Origin: a virus
Taxonomy: Duplodnaviria; Heunggongvirae; Uroviricota; Caudoviricetes
DNA: 14,304 bases
Virus record (IMG/VR): IMGVR_UViG_2681813271_000007
Direction: 5' to 3' (one strand)
The position numbers and the translations under genes were made by a program. The notes below the pieces were generated by a model. The model was given only the letters and a program-made list of their open reading frames with translations. It did not search any database and had not been told where the DNA came from. Shown one piece after another: positions 1-6,924 of the stretch (positions within the stretch are counted from its first letter, which is position 1; each line of letters begins with the position of its first letter).

Positions 1-90
1 CTCAGCAAATGATACATTGCCATGAGATAAATCATTACGATGTTGTTTAACAGTGGCTAATTTTTCACCATGTTTAGTGTGAGTGTTCAT
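1..90 (-). CDS. hypothetical small protein, 5' part only (continues beyond left edge); fourth gene of cargo cassette
   Basis: ATG at 90..88 on minus strand, in-frame stop one codon upstream; hand translation MNTHTKHGEKLATVKQHRNDLSHGNVSFAE open to window edge; overlaps end of upstream gene by 17 nt; AT-rich like neighbours; no clear SD. Confidence 0.35.
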   Translation of the reverse strand, partial: MNTHTKHGEKLATVKQHRNDLSHGNVSFAE

Positions 91-397
91 TTTTTAATCT
101 TTTTAATATTTCTGACCTGAGATTTTTCCTGAGTTTGTCAAATTCTACGTTTCTATCATAAATAGTCTCATGAATAAGGCAGATAGCTTCTCTCATTGTT
201 GATTCAATGAGGTTATATAACAGTATATATACTGCTCCCTTTAGAGTTTTTCGTGATTGAGCAGTAATGGAGAACTTATGTTCTTTATCATCAGCTGATA
301 TCAGTTCTGCACCGGCATACTCAATAAATTTCAAAAGATCCAAATAGGCCAAGATCTCTCCTGACCTTTCGTCAAAATCCTCACGAAAACGATCCAT
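74..397 (-). CDS. hypothetical protein (107 aa), third gene of cargo cassette
   Basis: ORF in track; strong SD (AGAGGA) 6-7 nt upstream of ATG embedded in end of upstream gene; stop-1nt-start junction (TAACATG) suggests translational coupling; AT-rich; no domain recognised. Confidence 0.6.
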   Translation of the reverse strand: MDRFREDFDERSGEILAYLDLLKFIEYAGAELISADDKEHKFSITAQSRKTLKGAVYILLYNLIESTMREAICLIHETIYDRNVEFDKLRKNLRSEILKRLKNEHSH

Positions 398-398
398 G

Positions 399-722
399 TT
401 AATCCTCTAATAATTTATCCCGAACATATTCAATTCGTTCAATTACCTTCACGCGACTATTAGCTCCGTCGGAAGTGGTCAATCGTTTGAATTCTTCTGA
501 GCTTAGCCAATCTAAGTTCTTGGGAACAAGGTCAGGGACTTCACGTAATGCAAGTGCTGCGCCAACAGCGAGAGATTCGAATCTAACTCGAGGTGTAGAT
601 TTTGCAGTAATAGTTTTCTTGAATCCTGCTGGGAAATAGTTTTCAACAAAAGATAGAACATTAGCAAACTCTTGTTTCATTGAGTTTTGTTTAGTTTCGT
701 CTATATCTCGATTTTCTGACAT
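399..722 (-). CDS. hypothetical protein (107 aa), possibly the C-terminal continuation of the DUF262 protein
   Basis: ORF in track; weak/no SD; its frame stays open upstream of the ATG all the way into the N run at 755..793 (..HSVRDFLNDY-M..). Confidence 0.5.
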   Translation of the reverse strand: MSENRDIDETKQNSMKQEFANVLSFVENYFPAGFKKTITAKSTPRVRFESLAVGAALALREVPDLVPKNLDWLSSEEFKRLTTSDGANSRVKVIERIEYVRDKLLED

Positions 723-726
723 ATAG

Positions 727-1587
727 TCATTTAGAAAATCCCGTACGGAATGATNNNNNNNNNNNNNNNNNNNNNNNNNNNNNNNNNNNNNNNTTGTACT
801 TATCTACGTAGGCAAAGAATCTTAATGTAAATTCTAACCGTTCATCTCGTTTTTCTTTAGTCTGAGATAAAGGTGCTAATTCTTTAAATTTAGGTATTGT
901 TGAGCATGGCTTAATAACCTGTGTATATAAATTTGTTGAACCAAGTTCTGATCCNNNNNNNNNNNNNNNNNNNNNNNNNNNNNNNNNNNNNNNNNNNNNN
1001 NNGCCAGAGTTAATACGCTCAAAAAGATCTCTACGGGTTTCTTCATTGCATTTAGAACTCAATTCTATAACGCGGACAGGAATTCTCATGAAACGACGTT
1101 GACGTGATAATGGTAAATCTTGGAATTTGAAACCATTAAGGACGTCTAAAGATTTCAGGTCTTGTAAAACTAATTCATTTTGGATAAAAGCGTGTATAGT
1201 CCTAACTCGTTGTGAGCCATCAACAATCTCAATTCGCCCATCTAAATCGGGATCTTCGGAGAGAACATCTGCTATAAATATATATGGTATAGGAAAACCC
1301 AAAATCAAAGACTCTATCAATTTTGATTGTCTTTTTTCACTCCAAACAAAATCCCTTTGATAATCAGGAACAAAGAGTTCGTTAGTATCATCCTCTAATC
1401 CGTTATGATACTTATTAACTAATAACTCAACGGTAAATTCTTTGGTCTCAAAATCCACATCCTTTTGCTCAGCACGAATTTGCTCTTCAGCGTTTTGCTT
1501 TATCACCTCTAGCTGAGCAAGCAACTCTGCTCTTTTCTTGGCATTATCTTCATTTTCTAGTTGAGATTTTAAATCAATAATGTCCAT
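727..1587 (-). CDS. DUF262 / ParB-like domain protein (GmrS-like N-terminal domain family), interrupted by two N runs
   Basis: Translation contains VPDYQRDFVW ... LILGFPIPYIFI ... IEIVDGSQRVRTIHAF ... FERINSG, matching the hallmark YQR..W and DGQQR-type motifs of DUF262; preceded by ~45 aa charged coiled-coil-like N-terminus; first ATG at 1587 with AAGGGAA SD 8 nt upstream (track ORF extends to TTG at 1605). Confidence 0.7.
   Translation of the reverse strand: MDIIDLKSQLENEDNAKKRAELLAQLEVIKQNAEEQIRAEQKDVDFETKEFTVELLVNKYHNGLEDDTNELFVPDYQRDFVWSEKRQSKLIESLILGFPIPYIFIADVLSEDPDLDGRIEIVDGSQRVRTIHAFIQNELVLQDLKSLDVLNGFKFQDLPLSRQRRFMRIPVRVIELSSKCNEETRRDLFERINSGXXXXXXXXXXXXXXXXGSELGSTNLYTQVIKPCSTIPKFKELAPLSQTKEKRDERLEFTLRFFAYVDKYXXXXXXXXXXXXXXSFRTGFSK
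755..793. other. run of 39 N (masked or unsequenced bases) inside DUF262 gene
   Basis: seen directly in sequence. Confidence 1.
955..1002. other. run of 48 N (masked or unsequenced bases) inside DUF262 gene
   Basis: seen directly in sequence. Confidence 1.
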
Positions 1588-1605
1588 GTCTAGTTCCCTT
1601 AACAA

Positions 1606-1772
1606 GTGTTAAAAATTGAAGCGGATAGCATACCGCATAGATCATGAAAAATGCCATCATGTGCATGGATTTGCATGCGTCAGAAGTCGCTTTTATTGTT
1701 AGTTATCACTAGCGCTGGCGTGCTCTTGGAGTGTTCATGCAACTGCATTAAAACCGCCCCATGAAGCGGGCG
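1606..1772 (-). promoter_or_regulatory. putative promoter/operator region of the cargo operon
   Basis: Non-coding gap between cos and first cargo gene; contains direct repeat TGCATG..TGCATG (1662..1677) and several CATG motifs; no convincing sigma70 -35/-10 pair found by eye. Confidence 0.25.
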
Positions 1773-1791: not shown

Positions 1792-1931
1792 TGCGCGCTG
1801 GCGGTGGTGCTGATTTTATTTTCCAGCGTCTCAGCGCGTCGTGACGGCGCTTAGTCTGCCCGTTGGGCGTTGGTGTGTCTGCGGGATTTTTTGTGCGGTG
1901 ATGAGCGTGTGAGGGCGTGATGGCGGGGTGT

Positions 1932-1958: not shown

Positions 1959-2993
1959 TCAGCCGTTGTCAGTGTCCAGTGAGTAGTTTTTAAAGCGGAT
2001 GACCTCCTGACCGAGCCAGCCGTTTATCTCGCGGATCCTGTCCTGTAACGGGATAAGCTCATTGCGGACAAAGACCTTTGCCACTTTCTCAATATCACCC
2101 AGCGACCCGACGTTCTCCGGCTTGCCCCCCATCAACTGAAAGGGGATGCGGTGCGCGTCCAGCAGGTCAGCGGCGCTGGCTTTTTTGATATTAAAAAAAT
2201 CGTCCTTCGTTGCCACTTCACTGAGCGGGATAATTTTAATGCCGTCGGCTTTCCCCTGTGGGGCATAGAGAAACAGATTTTTAAAGTTATTGCGGCCTTT
2301 CGACTTAACCATGTTTTCGCGAAGCATTTCGATATCGTTGCGATCCTGCACGGCATCGGTGACGTACATGATGTATCCGGCATGTGCGCCGTTTTCGTAA
2401 TACTTGCGGCGGAACAGCGTGGCCGACTCATTCAGCCATGCAGAGTTAAGGGCGCTGAGATATTCCGGCAGGCCGTACAGCTCCTGATTAATATCAGGCT
2501 CCAGCAGGTGAAACACGGAGCCGGGCGCGAAGGCTGTCGGCTCGTTGAAGGACGGCACCCACCAGTAAACATCCTCCTCCACGCCACGACGGGTATATTT
2601 GGCCGGTGAGGTTTCCAGTCTGATGACCTTACCGGTGGTGCTGTAACGCTTTTCCAGAAACGCATTACCGAACACCAGAAAATCCAGCACAAAACGGCTG
2701 AAATCCTGCTGGGAAAGCCACGGGTGCGGGATAAACGTTGAAGCCAGAATATTACGTTTGACGTAAATCGGTGAGCTGTGATGCACGGCAGCACGCAGGC
2801 TTTTTGCCAGACCGGTAAAGCTGACCGGCGGCTCATACCATCTGCCGTTACTGATGCACTCGACGTAATCCAGAATGTCACGGCGGTCGAGTACCGGCAC
2901 CGGCTCACCAAAGGTGAATGCTTCCATTTTCGGGGCGCTGGCGGTGATTGTTTTTGCCGCAGGTCGCGGTGTTTTCCCTTTTTTCTTGCTCAT
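1959..2993 (-). CDS. Q: portal (capsid portal) protein, P2 gpQ
   Basis: 344 aa, N-terminus MSKKKGKTPRPAAK.., size and position match P2 Q; start overlaps P stop (TGATG). Confidence 0.93.
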   Translation of the reverse strand: MSKKKGKTPRPAAKTITASAPKMEAFTFGEPVPVLDRRDILDYVECISNGRWYEPPVSFTGLAKSLRAAVHHSSPIYVKRNILASTFIPHPWLSQQDFSRFVLDFLVFGNAFLEKRYSTTGKVIRLETSPAKYTRRGVEEDVYWWVPSFNEPTAFAPGSVFHLLEPDINQELYGLPEYLSALNSAWLNESATLFRRKYYENGAHAGYIMYVTDAVQDRNDIEMLRENMVKSKGRNNFKNLFLYAPQGKADGIKIIPLSEVATKDDFFNIKKASAADLLDAHRIPFQLMGGKPENVGSLGDIEKVAKVFVRNELIPLQDRIREINGWLGQEVIRFKNYSLDTDNG

Positions 2994-5851: not shown

Positions 5852-6924
5852 ATGCGCCAGGAAACCCGCTTTAAATTTAATGCTTACCTGTCCCGTGTTG
5901 CCGAGCTGAACGGCATCGACGCCGGTGATGTGTCGAAAAAATTCACCGTTGAACCGTCGGTCACCCAGACCCTGATGAACACCATGCAGGAGTCCTCTGA
6001 CTTTCTGACCCGCATCAACATTGTGCCGGTCAGTGAAATGAAAGGGGAAAAAATTGGCATCGGTGTCACCGGCTCCATCGCCAGCACCACCGACACCGCC
6101 GGTGGCACCGAGCGTCAGCCGAAGGACTTCTCGAAGCTGGCGTCAAACAAGTACGAATGCGACCAGGTTAACTTCGATTTTTATATCCGCTACAAAACGC
6201 TTGACCTGTGGGCGCGTTATCAGGATTTCCAGCTCCGTATCCGTAACGCCATTATCAAACGCCAGTCCCTTGATTTCATCATGGCCGGTTTTAACGGCGT
6301 GAAGCGTGCCGAAACCTCTGACCGCAACAGTAATCCGATGCTGCAGGATGTGGCGGTCGGCTGGCTGCAGAAATACCGAATGAAGCCCCGGCGCGCGTGA
6401 TGAGCAAGGTCACTGACGAGGAAGGCCGCACCACCTCTGAGGTTATCCGCGTGGGTAAGGGCGGTGATTATGTAAGCCTCGATGCACTGGTGATGGATGC
6501 GACCAACAACCTGATTGAACCTTGGTATCAGGAAGACCCTGACCTTGTGGTGATTGTGGGGCGTCAGCTACTGGCGGACAAGTATTTCCCTATCGTCAAC
6601 AAGGAGCAGGATAACAGCGAGATGCTGGCCGCTGACGTCATCATCAGCCAGAAACGCATCGGTAACCTGCCGGCGGTACGCGTCCCGTACTTCCCGGCGG
6701 ATGCGATGCTCATCACGAAGCTGGAAAACCTGTCCATCTACTACATGGATGACAGCCATCGCCGCGTGATTGTGGAAAACCCGAAACTCGACCGCGTGGA
6801 GAACTACGAGTCAATGAACATTGATTACGTGGTGGAGGACTACGCCGCCGGTTGTCTGGTGGAAAAAATTAAGGTCGGTGATTTCTCCACACCGGCTAAA
6901 GCGACCGCAGAGCCGGGAGCGTAA
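5852..6924 (+). pseudogene. N: major capsid protein P2 gpN, disrupted by a -1 frameshift near 6378..6381 (fragments 5852..6400 and 6397..6924)
   Basis: Two adjacent ORFs of 182 and 175 aa in different frames, overlapping by 4 nt; together 357 aa, the expected size of P2 N; upstream frame ends ..GWLQKYR then MKPRRA-stop, downstream frame reads NEAPARVMSKVTDE.. Confidence 0.75.

What the first reader, a model, noticed from the sequence alone, without database searches (positions are those of the whole stretch)
1..397. Two small proteins with R-x4-H motifs downstream of the DUF262 gene
The third gene ends ..KRLKNEHSH and the fourth (partial) contains ..KQHRNDLSHGN. Both fit the minimal R-x(4-6)-H pattern that forms the catalytic site of HEPN RNases, a common abortive-infection effector family. 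Such a short motif occurs by chance and the fourth gene is truncated by the window edge, so this is a weak lead toward a possible effector rather than an assignment.
Basis: inference. Interest (0 to 1): 0.45.

Follow-up and report, generated by a model that had tools for sequence, protein, structure and literature searches.

The report
One broken HEPN nuclease gene
The "two small proteins" are two pieces of one already-named HEPN nuclease gene, which sits with a DUF262 gene in a P2-type prophage defence hotspot and is split in this draft Shigella sonnei contig by a missing 160 bases; only one of the two reported motifs is real.

Summary
Both peptide strings are present on the minus strand (ORF 74-397 and the open frame 1-90). 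They are not two genes. In nine complete E. coli genomes the same DNA (98.7% identical in eight, 89% in one) holds one 226-aa gene, annotated "MAE_28990/MAE_18760 family HEPN-like nuclease", directly after a 380-aa DUF262 gene.

The window is a whole 14,304-base Shigella sonnei draft contig. It lacks 160 bases inside that gene. This removes codons 105-158 and shifts the frame.

- ORF 74-397 is residues 1-104 plus an out-of-frame "HSH" tail. Its RLKNEH motif is made by the junction; intact proteins read RLKNESVNIES.
- The frame 1-90 is residues 159-186. Its RNDLSH is the true HEPN motif: R174 and H179 are invariant in 107 full-length homologues and present in 140 of 140 divergent representatives.

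The HEPN guess is right and the two-protein reading is wrong. The family and its operon context were described in 2013. Whether the gap is a real deletion or an assembly error cannot be decided without reads.

The parts
74..397 (-). 5' fragment of the HEPN (MAE_28990 family) gene: residues 1-104 of the 226-aa protein, then three out-of-frame codons (HSH) and a stop
   Evidence: ORF list. Pfam PF18737 1.2e-09 over profile positions 6-93 of 211. Residue mapping onto the intact L001 protein.
83..100 (-). Spurious R-x4-H (RLKNEH): Arg and the next four residues are native, His comes from the wrong frame beyond the junction
   Evidence: The intact protein reads RLKNESVNIES. Column 105 is Ser or a gap, not His, in 107 homologues.
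86..87 (.). Junction of a 160-base gap relative to all intact relatives (L001 6087-6246 missing). It removes codons 105-158 and shifts the frame. No flanking repeat of 7 bases or more.
   Evidence: blastn of the window against L001. Deleted segment and flanks. All nine complete E. coli genomes carry the extra bases.
1..90 (-). 3'-ward fragment of the same HEPN gene: residues 159-186, cut by the contig end 40 codons before the stop. The ATG at 90-88 is created across the junction and has no good ribosome-binding site.
   Evidence: Translation. Pfam PF18737 profile positions 152-176. Mapping. Upstream sequence.
22..39 (-). True HEPN catalytic motif RNDLSH (R174...H179 of the intact protein)
   Evidence: R174, N175, L177, H179 and G180 are invariant in 107 and 72 homologues. 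R-x4-H is present in 140 of 140 divergent representatives.
399..1587 (-). DUF262 / GmrSD_N (ParB-like NTPase) gene, the partner of the HEPN gene. It appears as two ORFs (727-1605 and 399-722) only because of the N-runs. Its stop is 1 base from the HEPN start, and a GAGGA lies inside its last codons.
   Evidence: Pfam PF03235 5.7e-24. The intact 380-aa orthologue scores 4.7e-26 on Pfam and 2e-54 on PADLOC NsnA. Mapping. Junction sequence.
755..793 (.). N-run of 39 bases where intact relatives have 8 bases; it breaks the DUF262 reading frame
955..1002 (.). N-run of 48 bases where intact relatives have 33 bases
1959..2993 (-). P2-type portal gene that bounds the variable cargo (defence hotspot) on one side
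   Evidence: RefSeq annotation of L001 and L002. The identical portal protein is flanked by ten different cargos.

Best explanation
Window 1-397 (minus strand) holds two fragments of one gene for a 226-aa stand-alone HEPN nuclease of the MAE_28990 family (Pfam PF18737). The gene is translationally coupled to the DUF262 (ParB-like NTPase, NsnA-like) gene upstream. In intact relatives a convergent C5-cytosine methyltransferase follows it. The cassette is cargo in the variable locus between the portal gene and the replication gene of a P2-type prophage, a known anti-phage hotspot.

In this Shigella sonnei draft contig the gene lacks 160 bases (codons 105-158, including the invariant FSGNI and YGF motifs) and is frameshifted, so no active HEPN protein can be made from the sequence as written. 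Whether the gap is a true deletion or an assembly error is open, at roughly even odds.

Inferred mechanism of the intact system: the DUF262 protein binds DNA and acts as an NTP-dependent sensor. In this subclade it probably reads the methylation mark laid down by the linked methylase. It then licenses the HEPN dimer, whose composite R174/H179 site cleaves RNA (tRNA, rRNA or mRNA) and stops translation in the infected cell.

Shown here: gene identity, the split, motif conservation, fold and gene linkage. Inferred, not tested: defence function, RNA as the substrate, and the sensor role of DUF262.
For: - One gene, not two: eight complete E. coli genomes at 98.7% identity and one at 89% have a single 681-base CDS named MAE_28990/MAE_18760 family HEPN-like nuclease. 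The window differs by a 160-base gap.
- Family membership: the intact protein scores 103 bits on PF18737 (cut-off 26.8) over profile positions 6-211 of 211. The two window fragments hit profile positions 6-93 and 152-176.
- Motif conservation: RN(D)L(A/S)HG(N) is invariant in 107 full-length homologues down to 33% identity. R-x4-H is present in 140 of 140 representatives from a library scan with 1,757 hits.
- Gene linkage: a DUF262 homologue lies immediately upstream on the same strand in 80 of 80 loci from Gammaproteobacteria, Cyanobacteria, Bacteroidales and Acidobacteria. Dcm is present in 34 of 36 loci of the DUF262 subclade that includes this copy, against 3 of 41 of the rest.
- Hotspot: an identical portal protein is flanked by SIR2+DUF87, HATPase+methylase, AAA_13, GAPS4 and other cargos. 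A 30%-identical version of the same cassette sits at the same place in Peduovirus P24B2.
[quoted passage not shown] The DUF262+HEPN pair PD-T4-2 protects against T4, both natively in ECOR65 and when moved to K-12 (PMC9519451).
Against: - No experiment bears on this particular cassette.
- The HEPN protein matches no PADLOC 2.0 model even at E<=10, so it is not a recognised component of PD-T4-2 or any listed system.
- The RNA substrate is assumed from the superfamily.
- About half of the related loci lack the methylase, so methylation cannot be a general requirement.
- The methylase itself lies beyond the end of this contig and was not seen here.
Confidence: 0.85

Rival explanations
1. One reading: two separate small proteins, each carrying its own minimal HEPN R-x4-H site.
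For: Two ORFs with start codons exist in the contig as written, and NCBI's automatic annotation gave the 107-aa product an accession.
Against: - Both ORFs map collinearly onto one 226-aa protein in all intact relatives.
- The first motif's His is out-of-frame sequence.
- The 107-aa product occurs on one contig only among about 15 billion proteins.
- The second ORF's ATG is created by the junction and lacks a ribosome-binding site.
- Each fragment has only part of the helical bundle.
Confidence: 0.02
2. The 160-base gap is an error of a short-read, scaffolded assembly, and the strain really has an intact HEPN gene.
For: - The left end of the contig is a chain of short pieces (1-86, 87-754, 794-954). 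Two joins are N-runs whose lengths disagree with relatives: 39 against 8 bases and 48 against 33.
- The missing stretch is the most A+T-rich part of the cassette (27.5% G+C).
- About 200 Salmonella draft contigs end inside this gene at codons 84-114, and others start at codon 83.
- No repeat flanks the gap.
- The truncated product is unique to this assembly.
Against: The join has no N and only 1 base of overlap. Scaffolders normally leave at least one N at an unclosed gap, and a de Bruijn assembler needs reads across a junction. No reads could be examined.
Confidence: 0.5
3. The 160-base gap is a real deletion. The HEPN toxin gene has been inactivated in a decaying prophage of Shigella sonnei.
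For: - The major capsid gene of the same prophage is also frameshifted, by a 1-base deletion at window 6379 that is not in a homopolymer. Ten other contigs with the same portal have an intact capsid.
- Another frameshifted copy of the HEPN gene exists elsewhere (P0051).
- Loss of a toxic effector is a common fate (general knowledge).
Against: It is a single observation in a gap-ridden draft. The same region breaks many other short-read assemblies.
Confidence: 0.45
4. The intact cassette is a restriction-modification-like system. The methylase marks self DNA, and the DUF262-HEPN pair attacks unmarked DNA directly (HEPN or DUF262 acting on DNA) rather than killing the cell through RNA cleavage.
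For: - The methylase is tightly linked and co-varies with the DUF262 subclade (34 of 36 against 3 of 41).
- Anantharaman et al. list the operon with a DNA methylase.
- DUF262 proteins of GmrSD, BrxU and SspE act on DNA (PMC10952713).
- The DUF262 protein weakly matches a type II restriction enzyme model (3.1e-05).
Against: - Characterised active HEPN domains are RNases (PMC3710099; DARNA preprint).
- No DUF1524/His-Me or other DNase domain was found in either protein.
- Many relatives work without a linked methylase.
Confidence: 0.25

Closest known systems
MAE_28990/MAE_18760 HEPN family (Pfam PF18737; Anantharaman et al. 2013, PMC3710099)
   Same: - Full-length profile match of the intact orthologue (103 bits).
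- Invariant R-N-x-L-A/S-H-G motif.
- The operon context described for the family, a ParB/DUF262 gene plus a DNA methylase, is reproduced here.
   Different: Nothing in kind. This copy is disrupted and cut by the contig end. The family has no biochemically characterised member that I could find in the searched literature.
PD-T4-2 (Vassallo et al. 2022, PMC9519451), from E. coli ECOR65
   Same: - Two-gene DUF262 + small HEPN architecture.
- HHpred places its HEPN in the same pair of families (PF18735 97.8%, PF18737 96.9%).
- The DUF262 protein here matches the PD-T4-2_A model at 5e-35.
   Different: - The HEPN protein here does not match the PD-T4-2_B model even at E<=10.
- PD-T4-2 is shorter, about 1.54 kb for both genes against 1.83 kb.
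- PD-T4-2 is listed as DUF262 + HEPN only, with no methylase.
- The DUF262 here scores higher on NsnA than on PD-T4-2_A.
- The PD-T4-2 sequences could not be fetched for a direct alignment.
Menshen (NsnABC; Millman 2022; Li et al. 2025, PMC12065111)
   Same: The DUF262 partner matches the NsnA model end to end (2e-54, positions 23-376 of 385). This implies the same ParB-DUF262 plus DNA-binding 'sensor' architecture.
   Different: There is no NsnB ATPase and no NsnC inPIN-nuclease effector in the locus; the neighbours are the HEPN gene and Dcm. The Menshen paper does not mention HEPN effectors.
PD-lambda-5 (Vassallo et al. 2022): ParB/HEPN protein plus methyltransferase, 'a compacted prophage RM+Abi system'
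   Same: The same logic of ParB-like domain + HEPN + DNA methylase in an E. coli prophage.
   Different: It is a fusion protein with a ParBc domain and only faint HEPN similarity, and its methylase is a D12-class N6-adenine enzyme rather than Dcm. No PADLOC PD-lambda-5 hit was seen.
GmrSD / BrxU / SspE type IV-like enzymes
   Same: An N-terminal DUF262 NTPase domain with a DGQQR-type motif (here DGSQR).
   Different: There is no DUF1524 His-Me nuclease domain. The effector is a separate HEPN protein.
HepT/MNT HEPN toxin-antitoxin pairs (5yep, 7ae2, 8xdj)
   Different: - No MNT nucleotidyltransferase partner.
- The protein is about 90 residues longer, with an inserted region (residues 104-160) carrying its own invariant motifs.
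- No sequence-level match to any solved structure.

Membership tests
HEPN superfamily | R-x(4-6)-H catalytic motif conserved across the family | tested here: met
   R174 and H179 are invariant in 107 homologues and in 72. R-x4-H is present in 140 of 140 divergent representatives. In the window only the 1-90 fragment carries it, at 22-39.
HEPN superfamily | All-alpha up-down helical bundle similar to solved HEPN domains | tested here: met
HEPN superfamily | Dimerisation to form a composite active site; RNase activity | not testable with these tools
   Needs biochemistry or a multimer model; neither was run.
MAE_28990 family (Pfam PF18737) | Score above Pfam's gathering threshold over the whole domain | tested here: met
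   Intact orthologue: 103.2 bits against a 26.8 cut-off, profile 6-211 of 211. Window fragment 74-397: 39.1 bits over profile 6-93. Fragment 1-90: 17.4 bits, below the cut-off, over profile 152-176.
MAE_28990 family (Pfam PF18737) | Operon with a ParB/DUF262 gene and a DNA methylase (Anantharaman 2013) | tested here: met
   DUF262 lies upstream in 80 of 80 loci. Dcm is present in 34 of 36 loci of the relevant subclade and in L001, L002 and L094. The methylase is not within this contig.
PD-T4-2 | Component A (DUF262) matches the PD-T4-2_A model | tested here: met
   5e-35, 119 bits, but weaker than the NsnA match at 183 bits.
PD-T4-2 | Component B (HEPN) matches the PD-T4-2_B model | tested here: not met
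   No PADLOC hit for the intact HEPN protein at E<=10.
Menshen (NsnABC) | NsnA-like DUF262 protein | tested here: met
   2e-54 over nearly the whole model.
Menshen (NsnABC) | NsnB ATPase and NsnC effector genes adjacent | tested here: not met
   The neighbours in intact loci are the HEPN gene and Dcm only.
GmrSD-type type IV restriction enzyme | DUF262 joined to, or paired with, a DUF1524 His-Me nuclease | tested here: not met
   Pfam finds only GmrSD_N in the 380-aa protein, and the partner is HEPN.
HEPN-MNT toxin-antitoxin | Adjacent minimal nucleotidyltransferase antitoxin | tested here: not met
   No such gene in L001, L002 or L094.

The most novel reading that the evidence does not exclude
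The intact three-gene cassette (DUF262 - MAE_28990 HEPN - Dcm) may be a hybrid of restriction-modification and abortive infection. In this reading a ParB-like NTPase reads the C5-methylation state of DNA set by its own methylase and switches on an RNase rather than a DNase. The clean split between a methylase-linked subclade and a methylase-free subclade of the DUF262 sensor would then mark two different ways of telling self from non-self with the same effector.
Probability: 0.25. Interest if true: 0.55.

Novelty: already known. Interest (0 to 1): 0.15.

Why it matters
For the scan, this is a correction. An apparent pair of motif-bearing mini-proteins is one annotated HEPN gene, broken by a gap in a poor draft contig. 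One of the two motifs exists only because of that break.

For biology, the intact cassette is widespread. The HEPN family has 1,757 family representatives, and the cassette occurs in Klebsiella, Salmonella, E. coli and cyanobacteria. It is mobile on P2-type phages and belongs to a class (DUF262 + HEPN) with one validated member, PD-T4-2, and no known mechanism. The cassette is therefore a reasonable but not urgent target for experiment; this damaged copy is not.

Tried and rejected
- Megablast of window 1-1700 against deposited phage genomes gave no match. A later protein search found only 29-32% relatives, in Peduovirus P24B2 and Moraxella phages.
- PADLOC models for the HEPN protein gave none, even at E<=10. 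Two distant homologues gave only weak Csx1/Csm6 HEPN hits.
- NCBIfam gave no model hit for either the HEPN or the DUF262 protein.
- A sequence search of the family profile against PDB chains gave nothing meaningful; the best E-value was 0.32.
- Rfam on the whole window gave no match.
- I looked for fusions of this HEPN to DUF262 among the 150 best representatives. All are stand-alone proteins of 144-264 aa.
- I tried to reach the PD-T4-2A sequence through a homologue search with the DUF262 protein. The 120 listed hits were all close relatives, so no direct alignment to PD-T4-2 was possible.
- I looked for direct repeats flanking the 160-base gap that would explain a slippage deletion or a collapsed assembly. 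None of 7 bases or more exists.
- I considered that the N-runs were masks added to the window. The same runs are in the copy of the record fetched independently, and their lengths do not fit the relatives, so they behave as scaffold gaps.

Full report
**What is in the sequence.** On the minus strand of window 1-1605 there is a run of low-G+C ORFs (24-42% G+C against 53-60% in the phage genes that follow).
- ORF 727-1605 matches GmrSD_N/DUF262.
- ORF 399-722 has no family hit.
- ORF 74-397 (107 aa) ends KRLKNEHSH.
- An open frame from the ATG at 90-88 runs off base 1 and reads MNTHTKHGEKLATVKQHRNDLSHGNVSFAE.

The R-x4-H pattern itself is uninformative. It appears in 64% and 29% of shuffles of the two peptides, and in 32 of 54 long stop-free stretches of the window.

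**One gene, not two.** Pfam places ORF 74-397 on positions 6-93 of the 211-position HEPN_MAE_28990 profile. It places the 30-residue fragment on positions 152-176 of the same profile.

Nine complete E. coli chromosomes hold the same DNA, eight at 98.7% identity and one at 89%. There the region is annotated as only two genes: a 380-aa DUF262 protein and a 226-aa 'MAE_28990/MAE_18760 family HEPN-like nuclease'. A convergent DNA cytosine methyltransferase follows, and the set lies between the P2-type replication endonuclease and portal genes.

Base-level comparison gives three collinear blocks:
- Window 1-86 corresponds to L001 6001-6086, and window 86-754 to L001 6247-6915. The window therefore lacks 160 bases inside the HEPN gene.
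- The N-run 755-793 (39 N) stands where relatives have 8 bases.
- The N-run 955-1002 (48 N) stands where relatives have 33 bases.

Translating both versions shows that ORF 74-397 is residues 1-104 of the intact protein followed by HSH and a stop, read in the wrong frame. The frame 1-90 is residues 159-186 preceded by Met-Asn created across the junction. Codons 105-158 are gone. ORF 399-722 is simply residues 275-380 of the DUF262 protein, thrown out of frame by the wrong-length N-run.

**Which motif is real.** In the intact protein the sequence after Arg100 is RLKNESVNIES. The His that completes RLKNEH in the window is encoded by bases 85-83, beyond the junction and out of frame. Homologues have Ser or a gap at that column.

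RNDLSH corresponds to R174-H179. In an alignment of 107 full-length homologues reaching down to 33% identity, R174, N175, L177, H179, G180, F184 and G188 are invariant. A search of 1.84 billion cluster representatives with the family profile found 1,757 members at E<=0.001, and all 140 full-length proteins among the best 150 carry R-x4-H, mostly as RNxLAHG.

Other invariant positions are Y61 and E65 (the LYNLIE motif) in the first fragment, and G136, N137 (FSGNI), Y150 and F152 (YGF). These last four all lie in the missing stretch.

- further down, Csm6, Las1, AbiA and HepS

**Context and linkage.** A scan of one genome per species found 412 relatives. In all 80 loci fetched, a DUF262 homologue lies directly upstream on the same strand.

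The methylase shows a sharp pattern. Among loci whose DUF262 protein is of the type found here (at least 370 bits to the E. coli protein), 34 of 36 have a closely related Dcm, and in 33 it is convergent and immediately after the HEPN gene. Among the remaining loci only 3 of 41 have one. The hosts span Gammaproteobacteria, Cyanobacteria, Bacteroidales and Acidobacteria.

In the window the DUF262 stop and the HEPN start are one base apart, with GAGGA inside the last DUF262 codons. This suggests coupled translation.

The locus is the P2 hotspot described by Rousset et al. (PMC9122126) and Vassallo et al. (PMC9519451). Contigs encoding the identical portal protein carry ten different cargos at this place, including SIR2+DUF87, HATPase+methylase, an AAA_13 protein and a GAPS4-type nuclease. 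A sequenced P2-type phage, Peduovirus P24B2, carries a version of the same three-gene cassette at the same place. Its HEPN is only 30% identical yet keeps every invariant motif (hhalign probability about 100%, E 1.4e-38).

**Source and quality of the contig.** The window is the whole of contig CXCM01000103.1 of assembly GCA_001256555.1, Shigella sonnei. The 107-aa truncated product is recorded on this contig only. Several observations bear on whether the gap is real:
- The contig's left end is a chain of short pieces: 1-86, 87-754 and 794-954.
- The missing 160 bases are the most A+T-rich part of the cassette (27.5% G+C) and are not flanked by any repeat of 7 bases or more.
- About 200 Salmonella draft contigs end inside this gene at codons 84-114, and others begin at codon 83. 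Short-read assemblies therefore often fail here.
- Against this, the join contains no N.
- The prophage's major capsid gene also carries a 1-base deletion (window 6379) that splits it. Ten contigs with the same portal have an intact capsid. This fits real decay of the prophage equally well.

I cannot decide between an assembly error and a true deletion without reads. Either way the two ORFs are not two genes, and the sequence as written cannot give an active HEPN protein.

**How the intact system most likely works.** Shown here: a small stand-alone HEPN protein with an invariant R-x4-H site is obligatorily paired with a DUF262 protein and, in this subclade, with a C5 methylase. The whole set travels as cargo of P2-type phages.

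From the literature:
- DUF262 domains are ParB-like NTPases. In GmrSD, BrxU and SspE they sense DNA modification and control a nuclease domain (PMC10952713).
- The DUF262 protein here matches the Menshen sensor NsnA from end to end (2e-54; PMC12065111).
- Active HEPN domains are RNases that work as dimers (PMC3710099; DARNA preprint).
- The DUF262+HEPN pair PD-T4-2 protects E. coli against T4, both natively and when transferred (PMC9519451).

My inference is that the DUF262 protein is the DNA-bound sensor and the HEPN dimer is the RNase effector that arrests translation in infected cells. In the methylase-linked subclade the sensor would use the methylation mark to tell self from invader. A restriction-like reading with DNA as the target is less likely, because neither protein has a recognisable DNase domain and half the relatives lack a methylase.

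**Comparison with known systems.**
- The gene is a plain member of Pfam PF18737. [quoted passage not shown]
- It is not a PD-T4-2 member by the available test. The A component matches at 5e-35, but the HEPN component does not match the B model at all. PD-T4-2 is also shorter and is listed as DUF262 + HEPN only, with no methylase.
- It is not Menshen, because NsnB and NsnC are absent.
- It is not GmrSD, because there is no DUF1524 domain.
- It is not a HEPN-MNT toxin-antitoxin pair, because there is no MNT gene.
- PD-lambda-5 shares the ParB + HEPN + methylase idea but uses different families.

**Verdict.** The novelty rating is 'already known' and interest is low. The only open and mildly interesting point is the untested mechanism of the methylase-linked DUF262-HEPN cassette. 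That question concerns the intact relatives rather than this damaged copy.

Noticed in passing
window 5852-6924 (+), indel at 6379: The P2-type major capsid gene is split into two ORFs (5852-6400 and 6397-6924) by a 1-base deletion relative to L001. Ten other contigs with the identical portal protein have an intact 357-aa capsid. This is either prophage decay or a consensus error.
   Followed up: partly
window 755-793 and 955-1002: Two N-runs of 39 and 48 bases stand where intact relatives have 8 and 33 bases. The first shifts the frame and makes the DUF262 gene look like two genes (727-1605 and 399-722). The same runs are in the independently fetched copy of the record.
   Followed up: yes
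L004-L083 (genome-contig loci): Linkage to a C5-cytosine methylase tracks the DUF262 subclade: 34 of 36 loci with the E. coli-type DUF262 have it (33 convergent right after the HEPN gene), against 3 of 41 of the others. This suggests two versions of the system, with and without self-marking.
   Followed up: partly
L094 (Peduovirus P24B2, LR595873.1 29078-31979): A sequenced P2-type phage carries a strongly diverged copy (HEPN 30% identical) of the same DUF262-HEPN-Dcm cassette at the same hotspot. All three genes are annotated only as hypothetical or methyltransferase, and its Dcm CDS is short at 234 aa.
   Followed up: partly
L084-L093 (contigs with the identical portal protein): The same portal protein is followed by ten different cargos between the portal and replication genes. 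They include SIR2+DUF87, HATPase_c_3+methylase, an AAA_13 protein, a PDDEXK_GAPS4 set and several sets without any Pfam hit. This illustrates the hotspot and offers a source of unannotated candidates.
   Followed up: no
proteins P0115-P0128, P0035, P0052: About 200 Salmonella enterica draft contigs of about 104-105 kb end inside this HEPN gene at codons 84-114, and complementary fragments start at codon 83. Short-read assemblies systematically break in this A+T-rich stretch.
   Followed up: partly
window 1819-1863: A cluster of small indels relative to L001 lies in the G+C-rich intergenic stretch between the cargo and the portal gene, where P2 phages have their cos region. I did not examine it further.
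   Followed up: no
protein P0051: Another frameshifted copy of the HEPN gene (184 aa, diverging after ...REEIKE) sits on an unrelated 1.8-kb contig. Either disruption of this gene recurs, or the same sequencing difficulty recurs.
   Followed up: no
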